From Anolis carolinensis (Eukaryota): a stretch of DNA of 64,000 nucleotides. Shown piece by piece: positions 21,825-61,778 of the stretch (positions are counted from its first letter, which is position 1; every line of letters begins with the position of its first letter). A program made the position numbers and the translations under genes. The stretch covers positions 196,308,107-196,372,106 of the forward strand of contig NC_085844.1 of the NCBI RefSeq assembly GCF_035594765.1, read 5' to 3'. The notes beneath the pieces are model-generated. The model worked only from the letters and a program-made list of their open reading frames with translations, did no database searches and was not told the DNA's origin.

Positions 21825-23883
21825 TCATGCCCAGTTGCAACACTGACAGCTGGAGTCAAAAACAAGACCGCTCTGGCAATTCTGCAGGAAGGTTCTTCCA
21901 TTCACACAGTGGTAGAAGCTGTTCTTGTTGGTTGGGTCTGGATAAAGGCCTCCGGCTTTTCCAGCACAGAACCCACTACCGCCAGAGCTGCTGGGGCTTC
22001 CGCCAGAGCTGCTGGGGCTTCCACCAGAGCTGCTGGGGCTACCTCCAGAGCTGCTGGGGCTACCTCCAGAGCTGCTGGGGCTGCCACCAGAACTTCCACT
22101 GCCACTACCAGATGATGGCTGGGAAGGAGCTTTGCAGCCTAGAGAAAAAGACAACAGTTATGATTCCTCTCTTGGATAATCACTGCTATTTTTAATTTTT
22201 TTTAAAAAAATGTGTACTTTATGCCATTCTGGGCTTGACACAGACAATTAGTCCATGCTATAGAGAAGGTCAACCATGAGTCTCTTAATTTTGCTTTCCC
22301 CCTTTTCATAAAGTATATTTCACCTTAATTCACCTTCATGTCAGCAGAGATGAGTCTGAGCTGCTAATCATTTTAATCTCAGGTATGCACAAAATTGGCA
22401 TTTTCTAACTTTGTTGACTGCAAAATCTCATAATCGGTCATTCTATTCCATCCTTCCACTATTTGGGATCTACCAAATCAAATATAGTTTATCAGCAGCC
22501 ATAACAATTCAGTGTTGGCTAGTGGCTGGCTAGAATAATAGAATCATAGAATAAGAGAGTTGGAAGAGACCTCATGGGCCATCCAGTCCAACCCCCTGCC
22601 AAGAAGCAGGAAATCACATTCAAAGCACCCCCGACAGATGGCCATTCAGCCTCTGCTTAAAAGCCTCCAAAGAAGGAGCCTCCACCACAGTCCGGGGCAA
22701 AGAGTTCCACTGCCAAACAGCCCTCACAGTGAGGAAGTTCTTCCTGATGTTCAGGTAGAATCTCCTTTCCTATAGTTTAAAGCCATTGTTCCGTTTCCTA
22801 GTCTCCAGGGCAGCAGAAAACAAGCTTGCTCCCTCCTCCCTATGACTTCCCCTCATATATTTATACTGTATTAGATGGGTAAAAAATCCACTCCGGGGGT
22901 TAGTTTGATTTTTAAAGAAGCTTTCCAAGATATTGAACTGAACTCTGTCTTAAAAATACATTCAATACCTTCAATTGTTATTTTAAGGGGAAGACTAAAA
23001 CAAACACTAAATCCACTCTCCTACTGACAGGGTAGTGACCTACCATAAACGCTCAATGGAATCATTTAAATGTATGGATTATATGTTTTATGACTCTGCA
23101 TTAATCCTTCCAGAATTCAAATACCATCTGATTGGAAGGTTAACAATAAATTATGAACTTTGTTCTGAACTGTTTCAGTCCTTTCCTTCCAATTCCTGTG
23201 TTATTGTCTCTGTAGCAGTGGTGAAGCCTGTTTGAGTCTTTAATACTCATTCCAGTTTCATATTGAACATAAATATGCCCTTGTACTACCGTGTTTCCCC
23301 GAAAATAAGACCTCCCCAAAGAATAAGACCTAGCAGGGGTTTGGGGGGATTGCCAAATATAAGGCCTCCCCTGAAAGTAAGACCTAGCAACTAAGGCTGC
23401 AGCAGAGTTCCATTGGGAAGCATGGCTGCAGGGCAGAAGCAGCACTCATACACACACCGGAGGGAGGGAGGGAGGGAGGGAAAGTGCTTGCTTTCTGTGC
23501 CTCCCTCCCTGCCTTGCCTTGCCTTGCCTTGCCTGTCCCCCAGCCTCCGTGGCTGCTGCTGCGCTGCCGTTTCTTCCTTCCGAGAGAAGGCTCCGTTCCT
23601 GGCCATGCTCCCTTGCTTCCCAGAGGCTTCTGATTGGCTCATGGAGCCAGGGCAAGGAAGGGTGGGAGGGAGGGAGGGAAGAGGGCTTTCGTCCTGCTGC
23701 TTTTGCTCCTTAAAGGTACAGGACGCATTGGGATTCTCCTCTCATCATTCCTATCCTATGCCATGAAACTGATTATTTTATACTATTATTCTATTGCCAT
23801 GTTATTATCATCATATTCTGTTACTATTATTATATCCCATTATTATATTATCCTAATAATATATTTTAAATCATTATATTTTC

Positions 23884-23915
<32 letters not shown>

Positions 23916-29900: not shown

Positions 29901-32900
29901 CCTGGTCTGTATTGGCCCCAGTTGGTGAAGTAGCATGATAGCACATAGGCAGAACCTATTTTATAAAAAGAAAAGAGAAGGGAGACCTGACAATGAATCT
30001 TGAAACAGAACAGGGTCAATACAGAGGGTAGGAAGAAGATAGCTTGGCATGTATTTTATTTACTGTAGCTATTTTAAAAGTTTTAGTGCATTTAGTCGGC
30101 ACTCCATGTTTGGAGGATTGACTTTTATGGATGTAATTTCCAGTAATCACCGATTTTAATTAAAATTTCTCTCTAGGAATGTTTTATAACAATTATACAT
30201 TGATTAATAAATGGCACATTAAAAGTCTACCATTTTCATTTAGACCTGGTTGACTTTGGATTAGTCCCTCAGTCTTAGAGGAAGACAAATGCAAATCTCC
30301 TCTGAAAAATCTTGCAGAGCTGATTTTAATAGTTTCTTCCATATTGTTAGGAATGAATTGAAGGCACACAGCAACAATAAAAGTTATTAAAGTCCTGCTT
30401 GAATAATCTTTATTTAAGCAGGACTTTAATAACTTTTGTTGTTGCTGTTTTACCTTAGGCAGCAAAGTATGTTGGACCAATTTTGCTTATTAGGTTTGGT
30501 AAACAATAGCAATGGACTATGGTTGCGATTTCTATAAACATAATTCTTTCTGTTTTGAACAAGCTTGTATTACAATACTGAAAGAATGAGCCCATTTCAT
30601 TTATAAATATGTGAATTAATTATCTCAGTATATTTGCATCACATTAACAATTTTGTTGGCCTGCTGTTACAACCTCCTGTTAAAAATAAATTTAAAGGTT
30701 GTCTTTTATCAAAGATATAAACTCATTCTGAATTGCAGAAAGATGCAATGTAACTATATTGATGGCTATTGGCTATTATAGTAATAATTATCCAGTCCAC
30801 TGAAAATCACTCGTAGCTTTCTAAGCCCAATATTATATACTCTACCCTGTAGTTTTACAAGGACTTTAAACTTTTCTGCCAAAGAATGCTGGTGTTTCAC
30901 CAAAATACAAATCCCATGACCACATAGCATTAAGTTCTGGCAGTTAAAATGGTATTAAACTAAATTAATTCTACAGTGTAGGTGCACCCAAAGTCCTAAG
31001 ATGGTATTGTTTCCATTGCTACTTAAAGTTTTAATACTAGGTATTAAGTTAGATGGAGACCTTCTGTATACAAAATATCTGCTGTATCCCTGAATTATGA
31101 TGCCATGCTCTTCTTACAGAGAAAAGGCAGTAACACCTAGAATATTTAATTGGTATTTTTTCCCCATAAAGCATGGTCCAGAGATACATATATTCCCAGA
31201 ACCGGACTTCATACCTATTTGTGCATTCAGCAGGAGTACCAGACCTGTCAAGAGAAAGGATATCGTTAGTAAATTGGATTAACAATGTTACTCTCTGTTG
31301 ACAGCATGATGTAGGTCTAAATTCAATAGTTAGTCCCAACTAAAGTCTGTTCATTTCCTTAATGACTTTAAAAAATTCAACAATTGATTCATTTGTGTCT
31401 GCTCTTGTGAGAAGCCAGTCACCTGCACGTAATCTGTAATTTATATGCATGCATTTTAATTTATATGCATGCATGCACAAACCTGTATCTCGTAGTTAGT
31501 TTTGACTTGAGTAGACCTATTCAGTCAATTGGATTATATGTTTCACAACAATTGATCCAACTCTAGTTGTGAACTAGTCAACAGGACATCAACTATAATG
31601 TACATGTCAAGATAGAATGAGTATAAATATTATGTATTTATTTATTTATTTATTTATGAACTTTATTTCTACCCTGCCTTTTTCCCTGTGGGGAGCTAAG
31701 GCAGCTTACGATAACATGATACAATCCAATAAATTAAAAAATGTGGCAAATACAAGTTATTTTTTTAAAAAAAACAATTAAATGTTTGTGTCATGTATTC
31801 AAAATATAGTTAAGATTCAATAAAAAATACTTGTGCAATTAAAATTACATTTAGCTAAATATCCTCTCCAACTCCCACCCACTATCTCCCCGCCCTCTTT
31901 TTGCAAGGGGACTCAAGGCGGCATGCCCTTCATCCTTCCCAAAATGCCTGATGGCAAAGAAATGTCTTCATTTGTTTGCAAAGGGCAAGCAGGGATGGGC
32001 CATCTGATCTCTGGGAGGGAGTTTCAAAGTTCTGGAGCAGCCACTGAAAAGGCCTCTCCCTTGTTCCTACAAAAAGGCATTTGAGCGGGTGGTGGGACAG
32101 AGAGATGGACCTCCCCAGAGAATTGAAGATTTCTAACAGATTCATAGAGGGAGATAGGGTCCTTCAAGTAACTTGGACCCAAGCCACATAAAGAAGTGCA
32201 CCTAAAATTGGCCCACTGAATGATCCACTAAAATTGGCCCACTGAATGATTTATGTCTGATATTAGCTGAAATGAAATATGATGTTCCTAATAGTAAGGT
32301 AGATCTCTTTTCCCCTGTGGTTTTCCATGGTACTGACAATATGTTGACCTCTGCCTGTTCCAATGGCAAAAGTGTGCCATGGTGAACTTCCTATAATTTT
32401 GGATCAATGCATATGAACAGCCTGAATAGCTTTTTTTTAAAAAAAGGGAAGTAGTTACCTGGATTTTATTTAATCTAAATGCAATGGACCTTATTAATAG
32501 AAATGCATTGTGGGGAGGAGCTAGAGAGAGGAGTTGTTCAGTACAAGGAGATACAAATCTACAGGTTCATCCAAATAGCAGAAGTAATCTGTTCTTCAAA
32601 AGAACCCAAAGATCAAACAGTTTCTTATCACAAGGCTGCAAATTATACAGTAAGCAAGATCCTTTCCAGAAAATAGGAATAACTGTAATTCTTTTTAGTA
32701 AAATGCCAGCAAATGAGGTTGACCATATAGTAAACTTTTTGGGATGTTGGTGGAGTTACTCAATTGAATTAAGTAAGACTAATTATCTTTTAAATACTAA
32801 ACTATTTATGAAATAGCAGTGACTACATTGCATAATGAACCAACAGAAGAAATAAGAGTCAATTATATGAGAGTTATATTACTACTTACCCGTAAGCAAG

Positions 32901-40039: not shown

Positions 40040-42270
40040 TCAAGCCCAATTGCAACAGGAACAACTGGAGTCGAATACAAGGCCACTCTGACAATATTGC
40101 AGGTATGTCTCTCCATTCACGCAGTGGTAGAAGGCATTCTTGTTGGTAGGATCTGCATAGAGGCCACTGGACTTCCCGTTGCAGAAGGCCCCACCACTGC
40201 TACCTCCACTACCTCCACTTCCCCCAGAGCTTCCACTGCCACCTGAAGATGGAGCTGCTGTGGGAGGCTGGGCAGGTTGACCATTGGCATTGGTCCCAAG
40301 GGTGGTGGTTGGCACCTTGCAGTCTGAAAGAAAGAGGAAAAATACAGTTTGTCCTTCCATATCCATGGATTCTGCACCCATAGACTGAACTATCCATGGC
40401 TTGAAAATACTAAAGTGTCAGCCCCACCAATAAAAGCCTCCAGTGTGGACTTTGTGCTGTTTTTATAAGTGACAGTGTTTACTATTCTATGCTATATAAT
40501 GGGACTTTGGTTATCCATGGGTGTCCTGGAACCAAACACCAGTAGATACCAAGGGCTCCCTATATAGTTAGAAAACTTTTCTGTTAATGTTTTTCTTAAA
40601 GGACCCAGGGATCATCACCTGACATAACTTGAAATCAGGGCTTGGAGCAGTAATTCATTGGAACAGAAAGGCCCGCACTAATGAGAATGTAGGAAAGTGA
40701 TGAAATAGATAGTGGGTGTTCTCATTCTTGGCAAAAGAAGTTGTAAACTCAGGGTCCGGGGGGAGGAATGGCAACAAAAGATTAAGCAAATGCAGGAGGA
40801 CAAACATTGGTTATGTTTATTTTGCTTGAAAAAATAAAATTAGTGGGATTTTTCATAGGGCCAAGTGAACGGAACACTGAATGCACGTTTAACATGCAGG
40901 ATTTCTAAAATTCAAATACTGAAATATGAAAATTGTTAGGATTGTAGCAGATAGTGATGACGAAATGAATTATTTCATTTTGCACTACAATTATGAGGAA
41001 AGTCTCCCATCTGAAAGTAATCATTGCACTGGGGCAAATTACCCCTTGATGCCAAATGGTTTTAAAAGAAATGCTTCTGAAAGTGTAAACATGGGTACAA
41101 GGAAATAGTGGATGCATTTCACTTATGTTATGAAGGATCAGGAACAGGTACACCAGATGATTATTTAGCCATCTGCAATATGTTACTTACTTGGTGTGGT
41201 CACTCCCAATGCAGATTTCAAGGAATTCATTAGTGGGTATTTGCCTTCCCCACAGAATGCACCAGTGAAGTCATCCAGATCAATAGCCCATACCATGGCT
41301 CCACCAAAGTTATTCTCCAGCAGCCACTTAGCCTGAAAGTTAAATAGTGAAGTAGACAATTGTAAAAGGTTCCCGACAATATATTTCTCACCACCTCATT
41401 ATAGCTTCTTCCACAGTGATTACACCCAGTCATGAATCCAATCCAGACATGAATGGGTTGGAATGACTAGTAGACAATTGATGGTTATTTCATGTGTGTC
41501 TATATCTTCAAATCCACTGCCAAATTGTGGCAATCCCATGAATTTTGTAGGGTTTTTAGGTAAGGAATACTCAGAAGTAGTTTAACCATAACCATAAGCT
41601 GACAAGTGATTTGAAGGTGCACACACACAATTAACTCAGTCCTGAAAGGAATTCTGCCTTCATAGGTAGGATCCAGCATTAGGTATCTCTTTGTTGGGAA
41701 CATGGAAGTGAGAGGTGACCTCTTCTTTCAGATCTTCCATGAACACCATAAATCTACTCAGGAGGGCTGGGAAATCACCTGGAGCTAGTTTTTGGACAGC
41801 TCCAAGGATTGTATAAAAGGAAAAGGAAAGGCAGAGGAAGTTTTATTGTGCTGGTGCTATAGCTGAAGTACAATATTGAATTTTGGCTCTTGTCCTCTTG
41901 GAGAGTGTTTCAAAAATCCACAAGTAAGGGCACAAAAGAGGCAAGAAGCTTACCTTGATGGCAAAACTTTTGGGGTTATCATAACCAATCCACTGGTTTC
42001 CTTTATAGGCATAAGGCACTTCCTGGGGAGCATTCCATACAACAGTGGCACCGCTCTTCAAGAAGGTACAGACCTGGGGTGGGGGTGGGGTGGGGGATAT
42101 CTCTTGCTTAGCCAATGAAGGTAGAATATCTGGCTACATAAAACTTGATATACATTATTAGATGATTGCTTCAAACTTTGCTATGTTGAAAATAGTATGA
42201 CATCCTTACTATGCATAGCAAAGGACAGTCAAATCACAGAGAATCAAACCAATGTATTAGAGAAAAGAGG

Positions 42271-42317
<47 letters not shown>

Positions 42318-45300
42318 GCACACAAAATATTCTGTCCAACCACCAGCTAAAAGCATCTTATATCAGCCTATTTAAAAGAGGCCATTTTTGTTTCCTAGAA
42401 AAGAATGAAAATGAATTTGTTTTAAATCAATACTAAATACTCATCTCTCCAAAACAGAAAAGGCCTCAAACTAAAGAAAAGAATTTGGAACTAAAAATAA
42501 TTGCTAGGTTGAAACATAACACATGGAAAGTGGGTGTCAGTATATTGCAACAACTATTTTCTATATGTATGGGATTTCAGTATGAACAAGCACATATTTG
42601 GGATCTCATTGACAAGGAAACTGGAGTTTTACCTCAAAGTATGCCAGTGTCCCAGCTGCTTGAGTGTAGGCACCACCTTTACCTGGCCCAGCAGTTGGCG
42701 CATCCAGGCCATGGTTAGAGGGGTTGGAGAGGGTGAAAGTGCGGGCATAGGCTCCAAATCCCACCATCAGCTTTTCAGCCGGTGCACCATTTTTCTTCCA
42801 GTAGTTCATGGCATAGTCCTGGTGGAAGGAACATTGATCAGAAAGAAGTTCTAAAATGCTTATTCACCAATTGAACAAAAGCATATGACTGAAGGTGAAA
42901 AGAACCTGAAATGCTTAGCTCTTCACAGTTACTCACCACATTGAAATAAATGTAGGAGCCTTGGTCTTCAGGCCCTGCATACAGAGGGCTGTTTTCACCA
43001 GTGAAACCTTCCCAGGATCCTCTGAGATCATAGGTCATCACATTAATCAGGTCCATGTACCTGAGGAGGTAGAGGAAGAAAGCAATCTAATATATTGTCC
43101 TGGCAAATTCTTTTAAAACTATTTATTCAATAGAAGAAGTTTGGGATTCACTCTAGTATTTGAGTATTTAGCATTCTCTTGGAGGGGAAATAGTTTTTTG
43201 TTTCTCATTTCCATATAGCAATACATTTAAATTTATCGAATTGCATATTAGCAATTTATGGCAGATAGGTGCTGAATTTGATAAAAACATACATCCATTT
43301 AAAGCTAATTAGGATTTTTAGGAAGGATATGTGATCTTTTATAGATCCATTAAGGGAAAGAAGCAGAGTTATAAATACATGCATATATACATACAATTCA
43401 TAAATATTTCTAAAATAGCAAAATAGTTATATTTAAGAAGGCAAACTAAACTGTCTTCAGTGGCTCACCAAGCATCATATTCTGGCGGAGCAGTTTTTAT
43501 AGATTGGAAAAGAAAGTAGGCAACTTATACTCTCAAAACAAAGGAGCACTCAGTTCATTTGAAATCACAGTGGGGAGAACTGAGGCAAACGTTCTAAAGT
43601 GCAATTGCCACAAAAAGAAATCTTGTTCTATTTTTACCAAGGGTTGAAGTATTGATGTGCAACTTACTTGGACATCTGTGGGATCTGGTATGCAGTTTCA
43701 ATGGTGCCCACACCAGCAGACACAGCTGCAGAAATCAACAGTCTGGGCTTGTTGGTTTGAGATGCCTCCTGTTCAAAGGCTTCATACATCTCCTGTTATT
43801 GGAAGCAGTGAATAGTTATAAAACACTCCTTTAAGAAGAAAGAGCAGTGATTTCTAAACAATGGATAGATGGAAGACTTTTAAACTGATATTGTGTTCTA
43901 TAGCTTTTGCTCCCATTTCTCCAAACCCATAAACCTCACCATATAATGGCATTTTTGGAGGAGAAGATTAAGAGTATTGGGAATAGGGGTGACCAAAGGA
44001 AAAAAAACAATATCTTTGGACTTCAACTCCCACAATTCCTAACAGCCTCAAGCTTAAGCGGCTGAGGGGGAAAAGGAAAGGGCCTGAGGCCAGGAATTGT
44101 GGGAGTTGAAGTCCAAAACACCTGGAGGGCTCAAGTTTGCTCATGCCTCGGTTAGAATAATTACATCTTGCTCTCAAATTCCTGGAATCCTCATGTCAGC
44201 ACTGCTACTGGCCAATGCTAGCTGAGATATTCTGCAAATTGTTCCTCAAACAGAATTTTTCCAAAGGCTGGAAATAATCTGGAGCACAGCTTGTTCCACT
44301 GCTTGGAGTCTGCACCCATAATCTAGAGAATATATTGTCAAAACCAACCTGGAGCAAGACAGTGAAAAGTTGTTGGGTATCAGCAGGGCTGCCACGATTG
44401 CCAGGGTACTCCCAGTCAATGTCCAACCCATCAAAGTCGTACTTGCGTAAGAAGGAAATAGCAGACTGAATGAATGCCTGGCGATTTTGAGCAGATGAAA
44501 CCATGTCAGAAAACCTATGCGATAAACCAAAGTGGAGACTCAGAAACGATGAAATGAATGTTTTACCAATTTGCAGCATTCCATATCTTGTTGGATTCCG
44601 TCTCCCACGATTCCTCATCATTGGCTATATTGTCTAGGATTGATGGGAGCAGATGTCTGACAACATCTGGAGGGCTATATATATGACTACTTATAAATGA
44701 AATAAAAGATCTATATCTATATATAGATGTATAGACATATTTTAAGTATGATCTACTCAGTTAACGGTATAAAAACTTTTAAAACAGGCTTTAGTGGATG
44801 CACATAATTATAAGCCATTCAAAGAGAAAAAGTTGCTAATATGTTAAGTGAGAAGCTGTTCAAAATGCTTGCAAAACAAGGCCTTACTTCTGGGTACCAA
44901 AGTTCCAGCCTCCAACAGAGAGCAAGGTTTTCAGATCAGGATTGCTGTAGAGGAAAAAGAAAAATAGAAAGGCCATTAGACAATCTGAATCATCTACAAA
45001 CTATCATGTGATTGATCTTCTTTTTTTAAATAACAGAAATGTCAGTCTTATATGTAGGATTGACAGATCCTAAAAGAGCTCCCATACTATTTCAAGGTTG
45101 CATGGTCAGGGCAGAGGTGAGAGCAGCAACAATATTTATTGCGAATTCTTTATAATTTTATCAAAGATGTTGTTTCAGAGATGAAACTACTTAAGCAATG
45201 CTACTCATAATGACTTTGATTTTGTATACCTCTTGCATAACATATATTTCAGGGCTCTTAATGTGGAATGGAAACCAAAAGATATTCAAACAGGATGGAA

Positions 45301-46541
45301 CATCTACAGAAAAATGAGATGGACTGAAGTCCCATAAAAGCCATTGTGATTTGAAGATGTTAAGAGATGTTCAATATTCTCTAGACTTTGTCATTGTTTT
45401 CAGTATCCCATGTAAATACACAAGAAGTATTCTTACTAGCTTTTGAGTCCATTGATGCCACCATAGAGAGCAACATCATTCGGATCAATGGTCTGGACCT
45501 GGTAGTTGTTAGTCATGCCCGCAAATGCATAGATGACATGAGTACATAGGCATGGGTCAAGATCTTCAGGCATGTAACGTGCAATGCCAGGTCTGTACTG
45601 GCACCAGTTGGTGAAGTAACAGACAATATTGGTAGATGCACCTGCATGGGAGGAGGCATAGAGTCAATCAACGCAAGATTGTAATTAACTAGGGTTGAGA
45701 GAAAAAAAAAGTTTGGAATATTGCTTTTTATGGAATATAATAAAAACGGGGAGTAGACTAGAACTTACCCAGCTGCAATTGCAGCAGGAAAGCCAGACCT
45801 ATGAAAGAAAAGTTCCTATTGTGAGTAAAGCATAAAAATAAGAATTCTTTATTCACTCAAACTATAAATGGTGGATTCACTTTGACACAGAAGTACATTG
45901 TTCCTTTAGGCAAAATAATTCTTAGTAACACTGATTGTTTTAGGTCACTTCAGTGTTTGAAACTATCCATGGATTGCCCTAATCTTGCATAATAATTATG
46001 ATTGTGATGAACTGATGAACTGATCACTTACAGATGACAGCTTTCATGAAACTGCCTGATAGAATCTATCATATGATCTCTTTCAATGTCCTAAACAATA
46101 TAGTGTGAAATGAGCACAAAATAGTATATTTGTTTGTGTAAAGTCAATATATAGCTAATCCATTGATTGAAGAACTATTAATTAAGAAGGATTTTGAAAC
46201 TATTCCATATCTTATCCTAAACAGGCTTGATGCCGCAAGAACTAAAAATGGAAAAAGGATAAGTAAGCATGGGCAGGTTCTCAACAAAAGATAACATAAC
46301 TTGGGTCCCATGAACAAAGTAGGAACTAAAACTTTGTTTGGAAGCACCAACAACATTTAGAGCATTCTCATCAAATATTGTAATCAAGTAATATACAAAG
46401 GTACTTTTAAAGAAAGGATCTGAACTCGTAAGAGAGGAGATAGGACACAAATGGACAGGTGGAAGTCCTAGAGCTTGTCTTTTTTGCTGCTGCATAGATG
46501 AACTCTTAATACTCACCAGTGAGAAGGAGTAGTTTGCCCAT
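40040..46541 (-). CDS. Gene C: divergent CHIA-family chitinase paralog, 487 aa, GH18 + linker + CBM14
   Basis: Exons 46541-46517, 45798-45769, 45641-45437 (205 nt), 44944-44888, 44514-44349, 43792-43668, 43060-42937, 42818-42633, 42073-41954, 41332-41191, 40323-40040; total 1464 nt, in frame, [16 protein letters not shown] intact; DPCLC and C-terminal CSCCNWA* are CHIA-type. Confidence 0.93.
42265..42314. repeat. (CA)n microsatellite in gene C intron 8
   Basis: Read directly from the sequence. Confidence 0.97.
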
Positions 46542-50092: not shown

Positions 50093-51219
50093 TCTTATAC
50101 AATGACTATGGGGAAAAACCTGAGGGACAGTTCTTTGTGCATTCTGGGGAACCTGCTTGGATTCTTCCACATATCAGCCCTTGGATTTTGCTCCGAATAT
50201 TGAAGGGGCTATCCAAGCTATTGATCCTTATTTATAAAGTAATCCCCACTGACAGAAAGAACTAGAAACTTGACCAATGCTTCCATTGATGGGACATGTT
50301 CTGATCCTCCTTGTTCCATTTTGGGAAGGTTGTAGTTGAAATCGGAGAGAATGGAGATGTTAAGGACATCCTTTCAGGCAAAAGTTGCCTGCAATCTTCT
50401 CCACAAAAAGCCATTTCCTCCTAGAACTGAATTCATTTTGTCAGAGACGGGCTGCTTGCCTGTGAATCTTATGCTTTCTTTATTCTCTAATCTCTAGCTA
50501 TACTGTGGTCAATGTCTTATGAATAAGCAACACATGCATTGTAAGTTTCATGCATTTCTCTCAAACCTCCCAATTCAAGCTCTTGCTGAAGGTTCCTGAA
50601 TTAAGGTAAATTTCATATTTAAGTGTAACTGAATCTTTGATCTATGAATGGGCTAAACTGAATACAAAGAAGTTTTCTCCCAATAATGAAGTTGAAATGA
50701 AAGATTAATGGAATACATTCTGTTTGCTACTCAGTACCACACCACAAAACATACATGCACAAATGTAATTTTGTAAATTAAGAATACCATTTCCCAGTCA
50801 AGAAAAGAAAACCTACTTGAAAGGAATTAAAACTGTTTAATTGAAATCATTAGACATATGTTTAAAACCAATATATTTAGCCCAATTTCTAGTATAAATT
50901 ACTTTTTTTCAGACAGTGAGGCTGGAATCAAACATATTTTATAATCTTCTAAAACAGAAACACAAACAAAAAAATGCTGCAGTGCAGAAATTTGAATTAA
51001 TGACTTCAGTCCATTAAAGCACACAAGTTAGGACAGAACTACATTAACCACAGAACCCCACAAAACTAATCATAGTGATCTATAATATAGCCTTTTTTAA
51101 AAAGTGTAAATCATGCCACCATGTTTTGCATATGGCAATTTGGTCATTTGTATTCCTCCCTAGAATAAAAGCACAAAGCATCCTTGCATCTTCAAGGTTC
51201 ACTTGATATTCAAGATCAT

Positions 51220-54200
51220 TCATTCTGCAGAACGGGTTGTTCTTTTATCCAGCTCTTTTTTAGCAGCTCCAAGCAGTGGATATTTTCCTTCATTGCAGAA
51301 AGAACCTGAGAAATCATCTAGGTCAAGTGCCCAAATCATGATGCCTCCCAAATTGTTTTGTTTCATATACTGAACCTAAAGGAAAAAGCAAAGAATTAGG
51401 TAAATCTAGAAGCACAATAAGTTTTTCAAGCTGATTATATAATGTACTTATATGCTGTCCTGTGGGTCCAATGCATTAACATTTGTCCACATATGGCCCA
51501 TGGAAGACCAATATACACAAATGCAATATTGGCAAATAAAGCTGCTAGCTCCAATGTGACTAGACAATTCTAAATATACAATGCATACTATAATCATATC
51601 TCTTTATATTATTCTCTTCACTCATTTGCACAACATGTTGGATGACAAGACAAGAGCCTAAGGAGAGTTTACTCAAGTCTAATGCACCATCGAATCTAAT
51701 GCACTTCTCAGTTTTTGAAGCCCTGAAACCAAAAAAAGTATATGCTGCCAAATGTTATGTGCAGCAGCAAAAAGTGCACTCTTTGTAATTTGTTCAAACA
51801 AGGTGCACATTACAGTGGCTGCTTGCTCATAATTCCTTCTTTAAAAACAAAAATGTTAAAATACTAAAACTTTTAGCAATGGAAAAGAAAATCATGGGAG
51901 CATCTATGCTGTAGAATGAATCCACCTTAACTGCCCTGGTTCAATGCTATGGGGTCATGGGGGCTGTAGTTTGGGATCATGGGGACTGACAAAGAATGCT
52001 GATGCCTCATGAAACTACAAATCCCAGCATTGCATAGCATTGAGCCATGGCAATTAAATTAGTGATTACATCCCTCAAATAGGAGCTCCAGTTGCTCATG
52101 AAGTAGCTTCTCCTTTTGCTTATCATAATAAGATTATAGTATTACACAAATCTAATATGCACCCTTAATTTGGGAAGGTAATTTAGCCTTAAAAAGGTGA
52201 CCATTAGATTCAAGTAAATACAGTAGTTCCATTTTCCTCTGTGGACTGCATCATAAAAGCATAGTGGCAATTTTGGCGGTGCCCATCAGAGGGTGTGGGG
52301 AACCCGTCGCTCCATGCCCCACATTGCCCAACTCACCAAACTGAGCTTCCCATGGGGGAAGTTGACCAATATGCTCTTCAAGTTGTGAGGTGCCTTGGGC
52401 CAAGAAGTTGCGACAGGACCTCACAACTTTCCCTTTCGCAAGACACCCTTCAATCAGGAGAGTGTTACAGACATCATTTTCTAGCAGTCCGCTATCCAGT
52501 GACTCAGAAAGGCTTTAGTTAGAGTGTCACCTTGTTGTGAAGGTAGCTTTGGGGAGGTAGTGAGGCATCATCTAGATCAATACAGTTTTCTGAATTTATG
52601 GCCTTTTCCTTGTGTTATGAAAGGGACTGTCACATTGGGGACCCGTGCTTCCAAAACTAGCAATATATGACTAGAACTAATTCTCACATTATTATACAAT
52701 CTTTGTAAGCCACTCACTAGCACCCCTAGGTGACATTATTTAATGAAAACAGGGAGTGAAACTTTTGACAATACTTGCCTTAAGCGCAACACTTTGCACA
52801 TCTTCATATCCTACCCATTGGTTTCCTTTGTAAGAGTATGGAACTGCTTGCTCCTCAATCTGTACTTTCCTGGCACCATGATTGAAACTGCAGATCTGGC
52901 AGAAACAAGTTGTAAGAGATACATATTACATAAACAGGTTAATAAAAAGTAGTTCTAGACTTCAATTTAAATTTCTGGGTTTAACCTTTAAACCTCTAGA
53001 TGACTTGGACCTTAAATACCTGCTTATGGATATTTTGTCTTTACATGAAATACATATAAATGTGTGGATGTACACAAAGCAGACCCATATAGTCCATTAC
53101 ACAGGGGCAATCCCCACCACACAATATCTGATCATTGGCATCAGTGAGGGTTTCTTCTGTATCAGTAGGCTTGTCAGTTTGGGATCTTATGGCCCTTGTC
53201 CAGAGATGCTTTTTGTTCTCACAGCAAAATATCTTGCAGCAGCCTAATCTTCATAGGAAGCCTCCAGATATGAAAAATTCCTCATTCACTGTAGACGTTC
53301 ATGGTCAAAACATGGTGTTGGAGGCCTGGAGGGAACCCCACATCTTAGGCAGTGGGACTGAACATTGTAACCTCCCACATGAAGTAAACTTTGGAGTTAG
53401 ATGAATGCTTCTTGTATGTGAGCTATACATGAAGCATTTATCTTTTTGCACAATCACTCCCATAATCTCCCAGCCACCATGACCTGTGGCTGTGGGCTGG
53501 TCATATCGACTGGGAATTGGGCTTCTAGGAACCCAATCCGGCATGACCATCCCACAACCAATGGTCATGCTGGCTGGGGATTGAGCTTCTAAGAGTGCTC
53601 ATTCAAAAAAAGGGTAACATTTTCAAGAAATTATGTATGTGTGTGTATAATTACATACTATTTGCTATGGTAGTGGTTGTTATATCCTTCAAGTCAACTC
53701 AAATGTGTGGCAAATCTATACTACATATACTACAAGGTTTTACATTGCTTTTCTTGAGGGCTGAGAGAATATAACTTTATTATACAATAAGTTTGCATTG
53801 CTGAGTGGGCGTTCAAACCTGACTCAGCTCCTGGGGTCCAAGTTCAATACACAGACCACCACACCATGCTGTTTGTCTGCCTTTCTGCTTTTCTGTCTAT
53901 CTGTCTGTCTCACTCTCTAAAGTTGTAGAACTTCATGCTGGGATTCCATATCTGAATCAGGAATTCATGTCCTTGACTGTGGTTTAGAAAACAGAATGAT
54001 GCTGTGATTTCCATGGGTTTAATGGGAAGACGAACATGCATGAAAACATTGCTACCTCATAATAGGCCAGCATTCCCGCTTTTTTTGTGAAAGCACCAGG
54101 ATTTCCTGGGCCGGAAGCCACAGCCCCAACTCCAGTCTGGCTGGAAGAAAGAGTGAAAGTCTGCCCGTACGCAGGGATTCCCATGATGATCTTCTCAGCT

Positions 54201-57200
54201 TGAGCACCCCTCCTTATTAAGTATTTTATTGCAAAATCCTGCAAAAAGAAGGAGGAATCGATTAGTAAATGTGCATATCTGATGGGACACTGAGCATATT
54301 CCAGTTCTGCTATATTACATGATGGGTTGCTATTTCTTCAACAGTCATGTGAAACCCAATTATTCAAATAAACTTAATAACATTTATATTCAAAGACATC
54401 GCTGTTTGTGTGGAATATTAGCATGTCTCTTGTAGCACTTTAAAGACTGGTAACATAAGCTTTCATAGACTGTTTTCCCAGATGCATGGAACAAAGTGCC
54501 TTGGAGCAGACCTTTATAGGCACACTGTGTATATGAATATCTAGTGATAGAAATTTAAAACATTTTTGTATGGTGATGACATGAAAAGTGCAGATTTAAC
54601 AATTTCCATGGGAGAAGGTGTTGCCTAAAGTTAAAAGCAGAGAACTGTTTGACTGGTGGAGTGAGTTATTAGAAGGTACTGACAACATACCACATTATAA
54701 GACGACGCAGTTCCACTGTCAGCTGTGCCCTTCTTAAGGGGACTGATATGCCCTGTGTAGTTGTGACTGTTATCTTCCCAGTAACCATGGAAATCATAGG
54801 TCAAGAAATTAAGGAAATCTACAGAACTGTAGGAGGAGAACAAACAGTAAATCACGCCCCATTTTGTAAGTGTGATGATGCTTACATTTCAAGCCTGCAA
54901 GATTAAAATAAAGTACCCATTTAGCTACCTGCACCAGATTTCCCACTGGGAAATCTGAAGGCATGACAGTTAGGTTAAACCCTACTTTTAATCTCTTAAT
55001 CTCAACTAGAATAGAGTAATTGAATCAGTGAAATGGTTAGGTTTATCTAAATGTTAGTCTCCTTTATTTGGGACTAAAAGAGGATCCCAGCTTCATCTTT
55101 TATTGCAGCATAAGAGGACAGGGATAGGATGTTGTAAAATTCTATGGCTGAATTCTCATTTTAAACCAGATATTAATTCTCCCTTTAGGAGGGAAGTTTC
55201 ACAAATGAGCCCCAAATCCTCATAGCATTTACCTGCACCATTTAAATGACTAGCAATATGAAATGCCTATGAACACTACAGTTTTCTAGTCAGCATGCTT
55301 TCCATTCTAAGTACCTTTTGCCTTGTCTTTGTTTGTAACAAATATAGCTGAAAAGATTTACCTTGAGATACTCTTGATATCATAGCCTTTATCAATGAAT
55401 TCCTTTCCAGCAGGTACTGAAACACTCAGAATGAGTTTATTCATATTTGGATTGTCCTTAGCCTCCTTCTCAAATGCGATAGATAGTTCCTAAAGGGTAG
55501 ATATCATTGTGATTTAAGGAACAGTTAGCTATTGTTATTCTATGAAGTACTTAGGCTGTTCCGAACAAGAATAATCAATTTGTATCAAAGTTCCTTCCTG
55601 CCACAATCAGTTCATTCCCTAACAGAGTGGGTGCTCTAATTAGTTGGGAAATTGATTTTTGGGTTTTAATATATATCTTTACTTTATTTGTATGTATGTT
55701 TGTACGGCATCCAATTGTTGCCTATTGTAAGCTGCTTTGAGTCCCCTTTGGGATGAGTAGGGCAGAGTATAAATAGTAAACAAATAATAAATAAATAAAT
55801 TTTGTTGGACTCTAATTTAAGATAGCCATATTGGCTGGTAAATTCTGGGAGAAGAGTCCACAAAGTAACTTTTCCGAGCTTTGATAAATTCTACAACTCA
55901 GGGTCAGATCTTAAAACTCCTTTATATTTCTGAAAAATTCACTTCTAAATTATTCATTTAAAAACTAATGACTCAATGCTGAGACATTGAGTAGCCTTGA
56001 GACATCCTTTGTCAGTTTGTCCAATTGCCTCTTCAATCAATATCTTGGTTAAATCCTGTTAACATGTGCTTTAACGTACCTTAACCAGGTAAGCCAAACG
56101 TCTTTTATCATTCCGTTCTGGATATTGCCAAGAAAGATCCAAGCCATCAAAATTGTTTTCCCGAAGAAACAGAATCACGGACATCACAAATTCTGAGCGT
56201 GTGGCAGGAGATCTTGTTATGAGTCTAAAGCTGTAACAGATGGAAAACATGGAATTAGGGGATTTAAAAATATATTTCATTTTTCATAGAAATATCATTG
56301 ATTTTTTTTGTATTAGCGTAAAAGCCACTGTGGCATCTATTTTGTTTTTTAGGCACAGCTTTGCTATTATTCTTTTTCTTCAAAAGCAACTGCTGTTTTG
56401 TGGGTATACATTACTGAAGAATGCTGTATTCCCTTTGTTTATAACGTGATCAGGTGACATATCTATCTTGTCCTTGAAGGCAGAAGGAAGAACATACAAT
56501 GAGCATAGAGGAGGAGGAGGAGGAGGAAGGGGGGGATAAACTACCTAAACAGCTTCTACCCTCCCTCAGTTTGCCCTGGCATTGACTAGGATGAAGCCTT
56601 GGCAAAGAAAGAGGAGGAGGAGAAATAATGAACCCGGTCACTCAGTGGTGCCTTGGCCAAATACAAGAGTCGAATGAAAAGTAATGCCTCCACCTTCGTA
56701 ACTCCTCAACAGATGACAGTACTGTTATGTGGCAGGTACTGGCTTGTTCAGCAGACTTTCCTCTACGGTTCCATTTGGTGGAAATTCTAGCATTGAACGG
56801 TTGTGTTGTTAAAGTGCAAAGTATGGAACCCTGTGCAGACGGTCAGTCAATGCAACTTAAGCAACGTGCAGTCATTGAATTCTTGACAGCAGAAGGTGTC
56901 ACCCCAAAGGAGATTCATCAGAGAATGCAAGCTGTTTATGGTGATTGTGTTGATATGAGTACTGTGCATCATTGGGTGAGTAAGTTTAAAGATGTTGAGG
57001 TGGGAACATCTGACTTGCGTGACAAACAAAGAGTTGGACGTCCTGTGGCAGCAACCACCGAGTTTCACAAGCAAAAGGTTGACAGATTGATTCAAGGCAA
57101 TTGTCGTATCACTCAGAGAGAAATTTCAAGCATAATTGGCATTTCACAAGAACGTGTGGGCCACATTACTGCTTTGCTTGGCTATTGGAAGATCTGAGCA

Positions 57201-60200
57201 CGATGGGTACCCAGGATGCTGACGTCTGAAATGAAAGCGCACAGATTTGAAATTTGCCAGGAACTCCTCTTGTGTTATAATTATGAAAGTGACGCCTTTC
57301 TCATTTGGGGTGACACCTTCTGCTGTTAAGAATTCAATGACTGCACGTTGCTTAAGGCGCATTGACTGACTGTCTGGTCAGGGTTCCATACTTCGCACTT
57401 TAACAACACAACCGTTCAATGCCAAGGCTTCCTGCCAAATGGAACTGTAGACGACAGTCTACTGAACAAGCCAGTACCTGCCGCATACTAGTACTGCAAT
57501 CTGTTGAGGAATTATGACGGTGGAGGCATTACTTTTCCTTCAACCCTCGTAGCTTCCAGTCTCTGGGAGAGAACAAAGCATTGTCAACACCCTGCAGTTC
57601 CACTGGATACATTATTTTCCCCTGTTCTGTGGGAAAGCATAAGGGCTTTAATGCAGGAATTCCTCAAGTGTCCTTCCTCCTTCTACAGTCAATGAAGGAG
57701 ACATTCCTCAGACACAAGTCACACCATAACACCACTCCTCAGAACAAGACACTGTGTACACATTGAACGTTGAAAATATTCCAGCACCACACTTGTCAGA
57801 TAGATGATACTACTTAACAATCTATCGTACCCCACAACTAAATCTCACCCTAATTCCACTCTAATACCAAGGATATATGTTGCAAAAACAATAACAAACA
57901 ATCAGAAAATATGTTCTCTTGACAACTATATAGTAAAAAAAAGTGTTTTAAAACAATTACATTAAATGTGTTGTTGACGGCTTTCATGGGCGGAATCACT
58001 GGGTTGTTGTGTATCTTCCAGGCTGTATGGCGATGTTCCATAAGTATTATCTCCTAGATGTGGGCAAAACGTCAGGAGAGAATGCTTCTGGAACATGGCC
58101 ATACAGCCCGGAAAATGCACCACAACCAAATTCCTTGCACATTAAAGCTGCAAGGAAACAATTTCACAGTGAAAACAGTTGTAATTTATTTGTTCCATGA
58201 ACGCCATCGCCAGGGCAAACTGAGGGAGGGTAGAAGCTGTTTAGGCAGTTTATCCCCCCCGCCCCTCCACTCCTCCTCCTCCTCTAGGAAGATTAGAATC
58301 AAGGTAGATATGGATGTTTTTGCTAGGGATTGACAAGGCCTTGATGGCAGAAAGAAACTCCTCTGCTAGGGGAGAAAGAAAAAATAGTGGAGGAGGAACT
58401 TGCATTTTTAAAGTTCTTTCCATCACTTGATTTTTTTAAAGAGCTGGGGATAGGATCAATACAAATTAAATTGGGTAAAGGGAACCTTCATGACACTTAA
58501 AGATATGTTGAATATGTATTTTGTTATGATAGTGTAGATTTTTCATTTTAAATGGCAAACCCTTTCTTATAGAGCTTTTATTTCAATGACTATTATATCT
58601 GTGGAACTATATATTGATATTGCATCTCAGAACTACAGACCAACTGATTGGCAAAGCAGTTTTAACTCACATATCTCTTTGAAGATTTATGACCATAGTC
58701 ACAACTTGTATCTCTGTGTCTGCTACTACATTGCAATCTCACACTTGCCTGTGGCCATACTTCCAATTTCAGCCGTGCATCTGAAGATGTGGCTTGATCA
58801 CCTTAAAAGCTCATACTGAAGTCTCAGAGGAACTTTTGGTATCTTTGATTTTGGCTACAAAAGGCAGAAATTGAATAAATTGATAGTTTTGGACTTACGG
58901 AGCAGATCCTGCTGAATATCCACCAACAGAGAGAAGAGTCTTCAGTGTGGGATTTCTAAATAAATAAATCAGTGGATGTAAAGCAAGTAAAAATTAAGTG
59001 TATACTTTTTTAACCCAAAGTAATCAAAGCCTGCTTGCAAGAAACTGGTGCTTTTGGGCAGAATAACAAGTGGTTCCCCTTCCCAAAAATCAGTGGGGGT
59101 GGCATCTTTCAAATGGCCAGGGAGGAAAAGCAGTTCCATTTCTCCTCCGTTTCCCAAGTTGGGAGACTGGGGAGAAATGGCCAGGAAAGGAAAGGGGTGC
59201 AATTTCTTCTCCGTCCCCAACTTGGGGGATGAAGGAGAAATGGCTTGGGGAGGGAAATGAGACCATTTCTCCTCTTCTCTGAGCTGGGAAAGGATCAGCT
59301 GTGAAGTGAAGGAGAAATGCTTGGGGAGGGAAGCCCCTGCTCCACTATCAGGTGGAGGCTGGTGAGTTTGCTAGTCTCACCCTGATGGAGGGGCAAAGGC
59401 ACCTTTCGGTATGCGATCAGATCTAACGCACACCTCAATTTTGGCAAAGCAATTAAGCTAAAAAAGATGCACATTAGATTTGAGTAAATATGGTAATTTC
59501 AAAGAAACAAAGAAGATATTTCCATGTAAAGAGACCCATCCTGAAAGACTGTTAATTTCAGAGTCTAATCTTTACACAACTGAATTAATGATTTTATCAG
59601 CATGGGACAGTGAAAATGACTCTGACCTTAATTCTGTTTCAATGGGACTTGCTTCAGAGGTATCTTGAATACTACAGCTTTCAAGAATTCCCAGTAAGCA
59701 CAGCCAATGGAAATGGTGGCTGAGAGATTCTGGGAATTGTAGTCCAAAAAGTAATTTCCCCCACCTTAGCATTAACTATCCTATCTCAGTATGAGAGGCT
59801 ACTATTGAAATGATCTCTCCTTTGTGAACCAAACTCTGTAAGTGCTTCATTACTATACTTACCTGGTTTTTAGTTGGTGGATATTGTCATATGTGCTCAA
59901 ATCATTCCACTCAGTGGCTGCAATCATGTTGTCTTTTATGCTGGCAAAAGCATAAATGATGTGGGTGCAGAGGCCTGGATCAATGTCGTCCGTGATAAAG
60001 CGTCCCGATCCGTCCCGATACTGAGACCAGTTGGTGAAGTAGCAAACCAACTTAAAGGTTGAAACTTTTATGGTGATTCAAAAAGATAACATGAAAAGAT
60101 AGTCAATGAACATGAAACAAAATGGAGTTAGGTATGAGCAGTGAGGTATGCCAATTTCATTAATGACAAACAAAATAGTTTAGTGAAGTCACAGCAAAAC

Positions 60201-61778
60201 TGGACATCAAAGTTTGTGTAATGCAGACACAGTGTAGGACAGCTCTGAAGATGCTGAACTTACATTGGGTTAGCATTCAGCACATTGGATAATAAGACCT
60301 AGAGAAGATTCACGCCCCAAAGACATGGGAGCTGCAAGCCACTGCGGTTCAAGAAGATCTCTTCAACTTGGTGAATGAACATCAAAATGGCAAACATAAA
60401 GTAAAGTATATTCGAGGAAAAAAAACACAATTCCCCACAGACACTAATGGGAAGTGAGCTAGGAACTACAAGCTGCTAGACATCTGAAATAACTTATATA
60501 GTTCTAATTATTACAGGATATTCTACAGCTTCAGAGGGTGCCAAAAAGATCAAGCAAAGCAATAAAGAATAACTCTCACAAGAAGAGAGGTAGCAAAATC
60601 TGGTCCCCGAGTTACAAAAATTTGACTTACAAATGACATATAGTTAAGAATGGGGGTGAGACAACAGGAAGTGAGAGACATCTACTCATCAGAAGGGAAA
60701 TTCACTCCTGAAAGAGTTATTATGGGAAAAAGTGTCTCCACCAAAGCTTTATCACCAATCTCTGTTTCCACAAGCCAATAATCACAGGACCAGAAAATGA
60801 AGTGAGATCTTCTGAACAGGGGCACAGACAGCAAAACAAACACCACAGGGATGTTAACCGTTCCCTGTGCTATCCAAAGTTAAAATTATATGTTTGTATA
60901 TGTATATGTATGTGTGTGTCTGGAGTTACACTTAAAAATGTACTTGTTCCAACTTACATACAAATTCAAATTAAGAATAAACCTATGTAATAATGATAAT
61001 ATTAATAAACTTTATTTAGACCTCTTCCCACCTCCCCAAGGGGACTTGGAGCGGCTTACAACAAGAGGCAATATACAACAAATACGCACATAGCAAACAA
61101 CAGAAGTAAACATATCAATTACATAGGAAATAATTAACAGCAAACAAATTAAGTATAACTCACAAATATTACTCATAACTATACAAAACTAAAAATACTA
61201 CAGAACATATCTTGATCATAACTTGGGGACTGCCTGTATTTCCATAAATGATACACTACAGATCCAGAATTTACTTTGGTGGGAAGAGAATTAGGTGACC
61301 CTTTAGAAAAATTTGACTCTTAGAAGAAGAAAAGAAAAAAACTAAGACATAAAGAAACAGTGACATACCTTGCTGTAGACATATCAATGCCACTATACCT
61401 AATGGAAAAAGAGAGAGAGATTATGCTAGGACAAAGCTATAAACACCAAAAATAATCATCTGAATAGTTTTCCCTTTAAGGTTGTTCTTTTGAATAATAA
61501 AGGAACTGAAATGAATGCAGGACATATTCTTAGCTGAGGCAGAAAGCATACTTGCTTAGCTGGCAAGGTTTATGGGATTTTCCCACGCACTGATACTGGA
61601 TTTTCTGGAGGGTCCTGTGGAGTGTTAAAGGCTTCTAGCCACAAGCATTCAAAATATGTTTTACCAACCCTCCCCATATGTTGTTGAAGTATTGAGAGCT
61701 CTATTTGAAGTAGTGTTCCCAAGCAGGACTTTACATTTCATCAAAAGCCTTACCAGTCCATATGATTGCTCTGCTCAT
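51220..61778 (-). CDS. CHI3L2: Gene D: chitinase-like lectin (CHI3L2/YKL-39-like), 394 aa, predicted non-catalytic, no CBM14
   Basis: Exons 61778-61754, 61398-61369, 60064-59863, 58955-58899, 56230-56080, 55489-55362, 54826-54691, 54238-54056, 52895-52779, 51375-51220; total 1185 nt, in frame (intron 9 is GC-AG). N-terminus [33 protein letters not shown]; GGY in place of GGW; [16 protein letters not shown]; stop directly after the GH18 domain. The symbol is assigned from diagnostic residues and position, not from a search. Confidence 0.88.
56664..57549 (+). mobile_element. Mariner derivative with two inverted left ends (about 250-bp arms) and truncated transposase
   Basis: TA-flanked; [35 protein letters not shown]...GRP...RITQREI (mariner HTH region); 57300-57549 is the reverse complement of 56664-56912. 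Confidence 0.9.
57968..58130. mobile_element. Short Penelope terminal remnant, two inverted halves
   Basis: ggctttcatgg...gggttgttg...ggctgtatggc facing catggccatacagcccggaaa. Confidence 0.75.
60596..61238. mobile_element. Tigger-like MITE interrupted by an L2-type tail, in gene D intron 2
   Basis: gtccccgagttac...aacttggggactgcctg|ta inverted ends. Confidence 0.6.

What the first reader, a model, noticed from the sequence alone, without database searches (positions are those of the whole stretch)
56080..56230. Gene D is a reptilian chi-lectin with an unusual inactivation signature ([10 protein letters not shown])
Seen: DxxDxDxE reads D-G-L-D-L-S-W-Q (56148-56125); the exon is 15 nt shorter than in A-C (YPERNDK versus [12 protein letters not shown]); GGY replaces GGW; DPCLC becomes DPGLC; stop follows the barrel. 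Known: human YKL-39 has Ser at the third Asp, Ile at the catalytic Glu, GGY and the same loop deletion; rodent Ym1 has Gln at the Glu. Inference: D is a CHI3L2 ortholog, so chi-lectins would predate the mammal-reptile split. Its CAA codon is one substitution from GAA and may preserve the first inactivating step.
Basis: partly seen in the sequence, partly recalled or inferred. Interest (0 to 1): 0.75.

Follow-up and report, generated by a model that had tools for sequence, protein, structure and literature searches.

The report
Expressed lizard chi-lectin beside chitinase genes
This is an intact, spliced lizard gene for a chitinase look-alike that lacks the two key catalytic residues and so likely binds chitin sugars without cutting them; it likely shares one origin with the mammalian inflammation proteins YKL-40 and YKL-39, and databases already name it chitinase-3-like.

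Summary
In detail: DGLDLSWQ at 56148-56125, a 151-nt exon against 166 nt in genes A-C, GGY, no chitin-binding domain. Gene D is an intact 10-exon gene whose product is identical to Anolis carolinensis XP_003220422.1, already named chitinase-3-like protein 1. Contigs from four studies are spliced (three span all ten exons). It belongs to a squamate-wide clade of Glu-less proteins that falls in the chitotriosidase lineage with mammalian CHI3L1 and CHI3L2 (96.6/97). Placement inside CHIA is rejected. So chi-lectins likely predate the mammal-reptile split, although a separate reptile origin is not formally rejected. One-to-one CHI3L2 orthology is unresolved: the best tree weakly prefers CHI3L1, and fused gene models show both mammalian neighbourhoods. 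The CAA codon is not a relic of the first inactivating step: Gln occurs only in Anolis and phrynosomatids, is one step from the His of most squamates, and keeping it from the ancestor costs 4-7 extra steps. Ser and DPGLC are not shared-origin marks. Loss of activity and chito-oligomer binding are inferred, not tested. Modest interest.

The parts
61754..61778 (-). Gene D exon 1, coding part (ATG; start of predicted signal peptide); transcript contigs reach up to 61866
61369..61398 (-). Gene D exon 2 (rest of predicted signal peptide)
59863..60064 (-). Gene D exon 3 ([16 protein letters not shown]31, Y34, W71)
58899..58955 (-). Gene D exon 4 (GGY; Tyr at the W99 position)
56080..56230 (-). Gene D exon 5, 151 nt: DGLDLSWQ at 56148-56125 (Ser138, Gln140) and loop 5 residues shorter than in active chitinases
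55362..55489 (-). Gene D exon 6
54691..54826 (-). Gene D exon 7 (LTYDFHG; Tyr/Asp equivalents of CHIT1 Y212/D213 kept; 4-residue insert)
54056..54238 (-). Gene D exon 8 (YGQ: Gln at the R269 position)
52779..52895 (-). Gene D exon 9, followed by a 1403-nt GC-AG intron
50817..51375 (-). Gene D exon 10: W358, stop at 51222-51220, 3' UTR to about 50817; no CBM14
40040..45663 (-). Gene C (barrel and CBM14 exons): divergent CHIA-side chitinase with intact DxxDxDxE, directly downstream of D
21825..29962 (-). Gene B (barrel and CBM14 exons): CHIA-type chitinase, intact motif
1635..6951 (-). Gene A (exons inside the window): CHIA, matches P0148, intact motif

Best explanation
Gene D is an intact, spliced GH18 gene with Ser and Gln in place of the catalytic Asp and Glu and no chitin-binding domain, and it likely encodes a secreted chi-lectin that would bind chito-oligosaccharides without cutting them and that likely shares one amniote origin with mammalian YKL-40 and YKL-39. 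Mechanism: Glu140 is the acid that protonates the glycosidic oxygen and Asp138 supports it (established for GH18; Glu140 as proton donor also in PMC11789784). Gln cannot donate that proton, so hydrolysis should be lost (inferred). The groove residues W31, Y34, W71, Y141, Y212, D213, W218, Y267 and W358 (CHIT1 numbering) are kept (shown), so binding is likely retained; W99 is Tyr as in YKL-39 and R269 is Gln. By analogy with YKL-40 it likely acts as an extracellular inflammation and tissue-repair signal (inferred). History: a chitotriosidase-side duplicate likely lost Glu140 (probably to Ile or Leu), five loop residues and the CBM14 before the mammal-reptile split; non-gecko squamates then reached His, and Gln arose from His in iguanian lizards. 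D cannot be assigned one-to-one to CHI3L1 or CHI3L2; my single most likely reading is a counterpart of both (about 0.4 of the total).
For: Motif, exon structure and splicing. AlphaFold model pLDDT 91.4, pTM 0.90, superposing on CHIT1, YKL-39 and YKL-40 at rmsd about 1.1-1.7 A. Squamate clade 100/100; with CHI3L1+CHI3L2 96.6/97 under LG+F+G4, 47 rows and SH-aLRT 97 under C20 PMSF, 71 rows, quick search. With a second turtle chi-lectin added, all chi-lectins form one clade at 93.1/95, 38 rows; summed RELL weight 0.87 over 115 topologies. Five-residue deletion in 46 of 46 chi-lectin rows and 0 of 38 others. Ile or Val at 140 in 3 of 3 turtle, 13 of 13 CHI3L2, 3 of 3 gecko and 2 of 9 CHI3L1 rows. 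Fused gene models give matching neighbourhoods: CHIT1-like then chi-lectin (king cobra P0015), chi-lectin then gene-C relative (turtle P0116), CHI3L2 then C-like remnant then CHIA (reindeer P0126). A 497-kb gecko scaffold carries CHIT1-like and two CHIA proteins with near-consecutive accessions. An Anolis gene labelled chi3l1 is over 10-fold up in the regenerating tail tip (PMC4139331 Table S8; not tied to D rather than its paralogue).
Against: AU tests do not reject a separate reptile origin from the reptile CHIT1-like gene (p 0.28 and 0.054 under LG; 0.15 and 0.054 under C20; up to 0.325). All chi-lectin stems are long, so attraction is possible. A same-length loop deletion with loss of Glu also occurs in two teleost proteins that sit inside the fish clade (Dallia P0273, Labrus P0392), so the deletion can recur. 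Few sites support any grouping (4 clean site patterns). Reptile CHIT1-like proteins group with chi-lectins rather than with mammalian CHIT1 (94.4/98), which is not the expected species pattern. No activity or binding data exist here; Ym1 with Gln140 is reported to have lost chitin binding (PMC11190707 passage), and CHI3L2 has a reported glycosidase activity on CD36 (PMC13236995 abstract). Gene order rests on fused predictions and equal contig lengths, not on DNA I read.
Confidence: 0.7

Rival explanations
1. D is the one-to-one ortholog of CHI3L2 (YKL-39): the amniote ancestor already had two chi-lectins, and squamates kept the CHI3L2 copy (first reader; a special case of the single origin).
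For: D sits directly upstream of gene C, as reindeer CHI3L2 sits upstream of a C-like remnant and CHIA. W99 is lost in 21 of 21 squamate and 13 of 13 CHI3L2 rows but kept in 9 of 9 CHI3L1 rows. Turtles have two chi-lectins, in tandem in a Caretta fused model. SQ+L2 is not rejected (p 0.45 and 0.56).
Against: SQ+L2 is in none of the best trees; summed RELL weight 0.018 against 0.58 for SQ+L1 and 0.32 for L1+L2. W99 is also lost in the turtle protein. The cobra model shows the CHI3L1-type neighbour (CHIT1) as well. The two trees pairing turtle-1 with CHI3L1 and squamates with CHI3L2 under a monophyletic CHIT1 gave p 0.02-0.03, though a similar pairing with the best backbone was kept at p 0.35.
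Confidence: 0.22
2. D is the ortholog of CHI3L1 (YKL-40), as its RefSeq name implies (also a special case of the single origin).
For: SQ+L1 is in the best tree; RELL weight 0.58; cobra model places the chi-lectin after CHIT1-like; best PDB sequence hits include CHI3L1 marginally above CHI3L2 (429 vs 428 bits).
Against: Support is only 51/71 and 42/69; these are the two longest stems, so attraction is likely; D lacks W69 and W99, which 8 of 9 and 9 of 9 CHI3L1 rows keep.
Confidence: 0.2
3. Reptile chi-lectins arose separately from the reptile chitotriosidase-like gene and converged on the mammalian ones.
For: Not rejected by AU; the loop deletion plus Glu loss recurs in teleosts; reptile CHIT1-like is the nearest active clade.
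Against: 18-26 log-likelihood units worse than the best tree, with RELL weight 0.05 or less per topology; it needs the same deletion, Ile/Val at 140 and the same cluster position to arise twice.
Confidence: 0.13
4. D keeps an enzymatic role (weak chitinase or N-glycan glycosidase) despite Gln140.
For: D133, D136, Y212 and D213 equivalents are kept; CHI3L2 and CHIL3 are reported to remove N-glycans from CD36 (PMC13236995 abstract only).
Against: Glu140 is present in 37 of 37 active-type rows and 0 of 46 chi-lectin rows; the position varies freely in squamates (Q, H, N, P, V), as expected for a site released from catalysis.
Confidence: 0.1
5. D is a dead copy of a neighbouring CHIA gene (A, B or C), like rodent Ym1.
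For: It lies in tandem with three CHIA-side genes and has Gln140 like the Ym-type row.
Against: Rejected: AU p 1e-59 (LG, fast constrained tree) and 3e-4 (C20); D is 47-52% identical to A-C but 58% to reptile CHIT1-like; the Ym row keeps the long loop and Cys49.
Confidence: 0.01

Closest known systems
CHI3L2 / YKL-39 (PDB 4p8u, 4ay1)
   Same: GH18 fold (TM 0.90, rmsd 1.1 A); Ser at 138, GGY, short loop, no CBM14; position upstream of a gene-C-like gene.
   Different: Gln rather than Ile at 140; keeps Tyr212 and W71 where eutherian CHI3L2 has Phe and Lys; about 50-55% identity; sister relation not recovered.
CHI3L1 / YKL-40 (PDB 1hjx, 8r41)
   Same: Fold, short loop, no CBM14, 52-54% identity; best trees place it weakly as sister; CHIT1 as upstream neighbour in a cobra model.
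   Different: YKL-40 keeps W99 and has W69 and Leu140; D has Tyr99, Thr69, Gln140.
Chitotriosidase CHIT1 and reptile chitotriosidase-like proteins
   Same: Nearest active lineage; 58% identity to the A. sagrei protein.
   Different: They keep DxxDxDxE, W99, the long loop and mostly CBM14.
Rodent Ym1/Ym2 (Chil3/Chil4)
   Same: Gln at the catalytic Glu position, no hydrolysis expected.
   Different: CHIA-derived (PMC9366555 passage); keeps the long loop and Cys49. The Gln is convergent.
Turtle chi-lectins (Caretta P0034, Emydura P0035; Chrysemys P0365)
   Same: Glu-less, same short loop, same place upstream of the gene-C relative.
   Different: Ala/Ile motif (or Tyr/Ile); turtles carry two copies, the second apparently truncated.

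Membership tests
GH18 chitinase-like protein (chi-lectin) | GH18 barrel fold | tested here: met
   Pfam PF00704 E 1e-95; model pLDDT 91.4, Foldseek TM 0.89-0.90 to CHIT1/YKL-39
GH18 chitinase-like protein (chi-lectin) | Catalytic Glu of DxxDxDxE replaced | tested here: met
   Gln140 and Ser138 in genome and spliced contigs
GH18 chitinase-like protein (chi-lectin) | No chitinase activity | not testable with these tools
   Inferred from Gln140 only
GH18 chitinase-like protein (chi-lectin) | Binds chito-oligosaccharides | not testable with these tools
   Groove residues mostly kept; binding not measured
CHI3L subfamily (CHI3L1 + CHI3L2, CHIT1-derived) | Groups with CHI3L1/CHI3L2 inside the CHIT1 lineage | tested here: met
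   96.6/97, SH-aLRT 97, 93.1/95 with turtles; separate origin not rejected by AU
CHI3L subfamily (CHI3L1 + CHI3L2, CHIT1-derived) | Five-residue loop deletion after the motif and no CBM14 | tested here: met
   the deletion also recurs in two fish proteins
CHI3L2 one-to-one ortholog | Sister to CHI3L2 to the exclusion of CHI3L1 | tested here: inconclusive
   Not in any best tree; not rejected (p 0.45, 0.56, 0.056 for the direct pairing)
CHI3L2 one-to-one ortholog | Position at the head of the CHIA cluster | tested here: met
   D precedes C, B, A on one strand; reindeer model; but not diagnostic, since reptile CHIT1-like lies in the same cluster
CHI3L2 one-to-one ortholog | DENND2D as upstream neighbour rather than CHIT1 | not testable with these tools
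   The window ends 2.2 kb upstream of the ATG and no genome is held
CHIA-derived chi-lectin (Ym1 type) | Nested within CHIA | tested here: not met
   AU p 1e-59 and 3e-4

The most novel reading that the evidence does not exclude
Reptiles preserve the ancestral amniote cluster CHIT1, chi-lectin(s), gene-C type, CHIA in one run, and the mammalian split into the CHIT1-CHI3L1 and CHI3L2-CHIA loci fell between two chi-lectin copies. The squamate gene is then the living single-copy counterpart of both YKL-40 and YKL-39, with a freely evolving former acid site (Val, His, Gln, Asn, Pro), and a candidate wound and tail-regeneration factor in lizards.
Probability: 0.35. Interest if true: 0.5.

Novelty: new member of a known kind. 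Interest (0 to 1): 0.3.

Why it matters
YKL-40 and YKL-39 are widely used inflammation markers whose original function is unclear. The papers I could read treat them in mammals only and place the cluster's expansion after the bird-mammal split (PMC1945033 passages; PMC11789784 passages). A squamate-wide, expressed relative would push their origin to the amniote ancestor and give a natural series of active-site states for testing how an enzyme became a lectin, plus a regenerating animal in which to test function. The gain is limited: databases already name the gene chitinase-3-like, a 2014 paper already lists an Anolis chi3l1, and Hussain and Wilson 2013, which I could not read, may already report a reptile chi-lectin (my recall, unverified).

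Tried and rejected
Whole genome not held, so the upstream neighbours were not read. Single-sequence AlphaFold failed (pLDDT 32.9); the 65-row alignment worked. The careful C20 bootstrap tree on 71 rows did not finish in three calls; only its quick tree is used. Support labels printed were shifted by re-rooting; the apparent 100% for squamate+CHI3L1 there is an artefact, and one search gives the correct values. Fast constrained searches were under-optimised and replaced by fixed-subclade topology tests; the first such run gave no answer after 172 of 215 trees and was repeated on 68 trees. The 55-row tree timed out and has no support values. Turtle P0116 looked like a chi-lectin that kept CBM14 but is a chimera with the next gene and was dropped from trees. 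P0415 has a mis-predicted N-terminus (used, replaced by P0365). No run is on record as RNA ('no RNA holder listed'); I rely on the spliced joints only, and tissue and level are unknown. No earlier scan finding matched. Papers not held: Hussain and Wilson 2013, Schimpl 2012, Bussink 2007. Ten literature searches listed no paper on reptile chi-lectin evolution; the library lacks most subscription papers. Rejected: CAA as a relic, Ser138 as shared with YKL-39 by descent, DPGLC as an inactivation mark, origin inside CHIA.

Full report
Observation. The minus strand holds four tandem GH18 genes. The finding lies in exon 5 of the most upstream one, D. The motif reads [11 protein letters not shown] from 56151, with TCT and CAA where genes A, B and C have GAC and GAG. 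The exon is 151 nt against 166 nt in A-C. GGY, DPGLC and the early stop are as described, and no CBM14 exon lies between D and C. All stated observations hold.

The gene is real and transcribed. Ten exons (61778-51220) translate exactly to P0001, 394 aa, which is Anolis carolinensis XP_003220422.1 / UniProt G1KBZ0, named chitinase-3-like protein 1. Of 24 listed runs I laid 4, one from each of four studies. Three gave one contig crossing all nine introns, with no other letter in the catalytic exon; the fourth covered exons 7-10. The last intron is GC-AG and is spliced. The runs are only guessed to be RNA, but the joints match the introns. Tissue and level are unknown.

Fold and groove. With a 65-row alignment the model has pLDDT 91.4 and superposes on CHIT1, YKL-39 and YKL-40 at TM about 0.89. 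In CHIT1 numbering (from the alignment), D keeps W31, Y34, W71, D133, D136, Y141, Y212, D213, W218, Y267 and W358, and has Tyr99, Ser138, Gln140 and Gln269. A hydrophobic N-terminus before FKL suggests a signal peptide (inference). Loss of the acid Glu predicts loss of hydrolysis (established GH18 mechanism; recalled, and stated for Glu140 in PMC11789784, passages). Binding is likely but untested; Ym1, also Gln140, is reported to have lost binding (PMC11190707, part 1 of 6 and passages).

Relatives. A search with P0001 found 1919 proteins at E 1e-40 or less, of which 120 were listed; a search with a gene B exon added CHIA sequences. I hand-picked 81 of these 238 proteins, dropping fragments, fused models and near-duplicates, and added genes B, C and one Ym-type domain (84 rows). 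The set has 21 squamate rows from 19 species. All 46 chi-lectin rows (21 squamate, 3 turtle, 13 CHI3L2, 9 CHI3L1) lack Glu140 and share the five-residue deletion; none of 37 active-type rows nor the Ym row has the deletion. Anolis has a second copy, P0006 (Asn138, Gln140, 68% identical to D), which pairs with D inside iguanians.

Trees. Under LG+F+G4 on 47 rows, squamates form a clade (100/100) that joins CHI3L1 and CHI3L2 (96.6/97); squamate+CHI3L1 has only 51/71, and adding turtles 57/84. A C20 PMSF quick tree on 71 rows gives the same trio at SH-aLRT 97, unresolved within. AU tests reject a CHIA origin (p 1e-59; 3e-4). They keep all three arrangements of squamate, CHI3L1 and CHI3L2 (0.87, 0.45, 0.69; 0.85, 0.56, 0.50). 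They also keep a separate reptile origin (0.28 and 0.054; 0.15 and 0.054), 18-25 log-likelihood units worse. A profile search of 50%-identity representatives (best 150 of 4181 at 1e-30) turned up a second turtle chi-lectin (Chrysemys). With it, all chi-lectins form one clade at 93.1/95 (38 rows); 58 of 115 topologies remain, the single-clade ones carrying 0.87 of the RELL weight, with squamate+CHI3L1 0.58, CHI3L1+CHI3L2 0.32 and squamate+CHI3L2 0.018. Against my reading: two teleost proteins show Glu loss with a same-length deletion inside the fish clade (tree without support values), so that character can recur; and reptile CHIT1-like proteins side with the chi-lectins rather than with mammalian CHIT1 (94.4/98), which I cannot explain (hidden paralogy, conversion or artefact).

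Gene order. No genome is held. Fused gene predictions give indirect order: king cobra P0015 runs from a CHIT1-like half into a chi-lectin; turtle P0116 runs from a chi-lectin into a gene-C relative (81-94% to C); reindeer P0126 runs CHI3L2, C-like remnant, CHIA. A gecko scaffold of 497,192 bases carries CHIT1-like and two CHIA proteins (XP_015280379, 380, 386). In humans CHIT1 and CHI3L1 lie at 1q32, CHI3L2 and CHIA at 1p13 (PMC1945033, passages). So the reptile chi-lectin likely has both mammalian neighbourhoods, and position cannot choose between CHI3L1 and CHI3L2. It does support common origin.

The CAA codon. Position 140 is Gln in 5 of 21 squamate rows (four Anolis, Phrynosoma; also Sceloporus), His in 10, Val in 3 geckos, Pro in 2 lacertids, Asn in 1. 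Gln, Asn and Pro are each one base from His. On a recalled species tree, codon-step parsimony gives His for non-gecko squamates (3 steps against 5 for Gln) and Ile or Leu for all amniote chi-lectins. Keeping Gln from the ancestor to D costs 4-7 extra steps in six settings. A brief ancestral Gln is not excluded (13 against 12 steps), but D's codon is not that relic. Ser138 is likewise not shared by descent: Asp is kept in geckos, all five marsupial CHI3L2 rows and pika.

What is known. The family is well known and the gene is already named. An Anolis chi3l1 (GeneID 100559528) is listed as up in the regenerating tail tip (PMC4139331, passages and Table S8); I could not tie it to D rather than P0006. 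Reviews and studies read by passage (PMC4373397, PMC11719014, PMC11742494, PMC9366555, PMC12329362, PMC11789784) contain no mention of reptiles for the terms searched. Ten searches listed no paper on reptile chi-lectins. Hussain and Wilson 2013 was not available; I recall, without verification, that it extends chi-lectins beyond mammals, so prior report is likely. PMC13236995 (abstract only) reports glycosidase activity for CHI3L2, which keeps a residual-enzyme rival open.

Verdict. A real, expressed member of a known family. A pre-mammalian origin of the YKL-type chi-lectins is well supported though not proven; CHI3L2-specific orthology is unresolved; the relic-codon idea is not supported. 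Interest 0.3.

Noticed in passing
window 52778-51376 (- strand): The last intron of gene D is a GC-AG intron, spliced in all four runs laid; the matching donors of B and C are GT.
   Followed up: yes
window 45663-40040 (gene C): Gene C is a divergent active-type chitinase (about 60% to A/B by exon, R269 where A and B have His) with a close turtle relative and a remnant after reindeer CHI3L2; possibly the CHIA3 type (recalled label, untested).
   Followed up: partly
P0006, P0014: A second Anolis chi-lectin paralogue outside the window has Asn138/Gln140, Glu at the D213 position, Glu at Y267 and a gap at W71, on a long branch: likely an altered binding groove.
   Followed up: partly
window 54826-54691 (exon 7) and homologues: A 4-residue insert after the W218 position is present in iguanians, snakes and Elgaria (shorter in Varanus) but not in geckos, skink, cordylid, tegu, amphisbaenian or lacertids; mammalian CHI3L2 has a separate 2-residue insert there.
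   Followed up: no
P0365, P0415, P0264: Turtles carry a second, apparently truncated chi-lectin directly after the first (Caretta fused model, 79.5% to the Chrysemys protein).
   Followed up: partly
P0273 (Dallia), P0392 (Labrus): Teleost chitinase copies with Val or Arg at the catalytic Glu and a loop deletion of the same length as in amniote chi-lectins; the Dallia one is close to its intact tandem copy, suggesting recurrent loss of this loop. Could be a gene-model error.
   Followed up: partly
P0313, P0333, P0405: Shark, ray and bichir GH18 proteins with Lys, Gln or Met at the catalytic Glu but the long loop: further, probably separate, inactivations.
   Followed up: no
reptile chitotriosidase-like proteins (P0032-P0088): They group with the chi-lectins rather than with mammalian CHIT1 (94.4/98), though CHIT1 monophyly is not rejected (p 0.14, 0.29).
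   Followed up: partly
window about 22200-21970 (gene B): Low-complexity Gly/Ser-type linker repeat before the CBM14 exon of gene B; RefSeq model of B is marked partial.
   Followed up: no
window 47816-47982; 56460-58380; 60300-61070: A 167-base assembly gap between D and C, and high-copy repeats in introns 4 and 2 of D that attract many transcript contigs.
   Followed up: no
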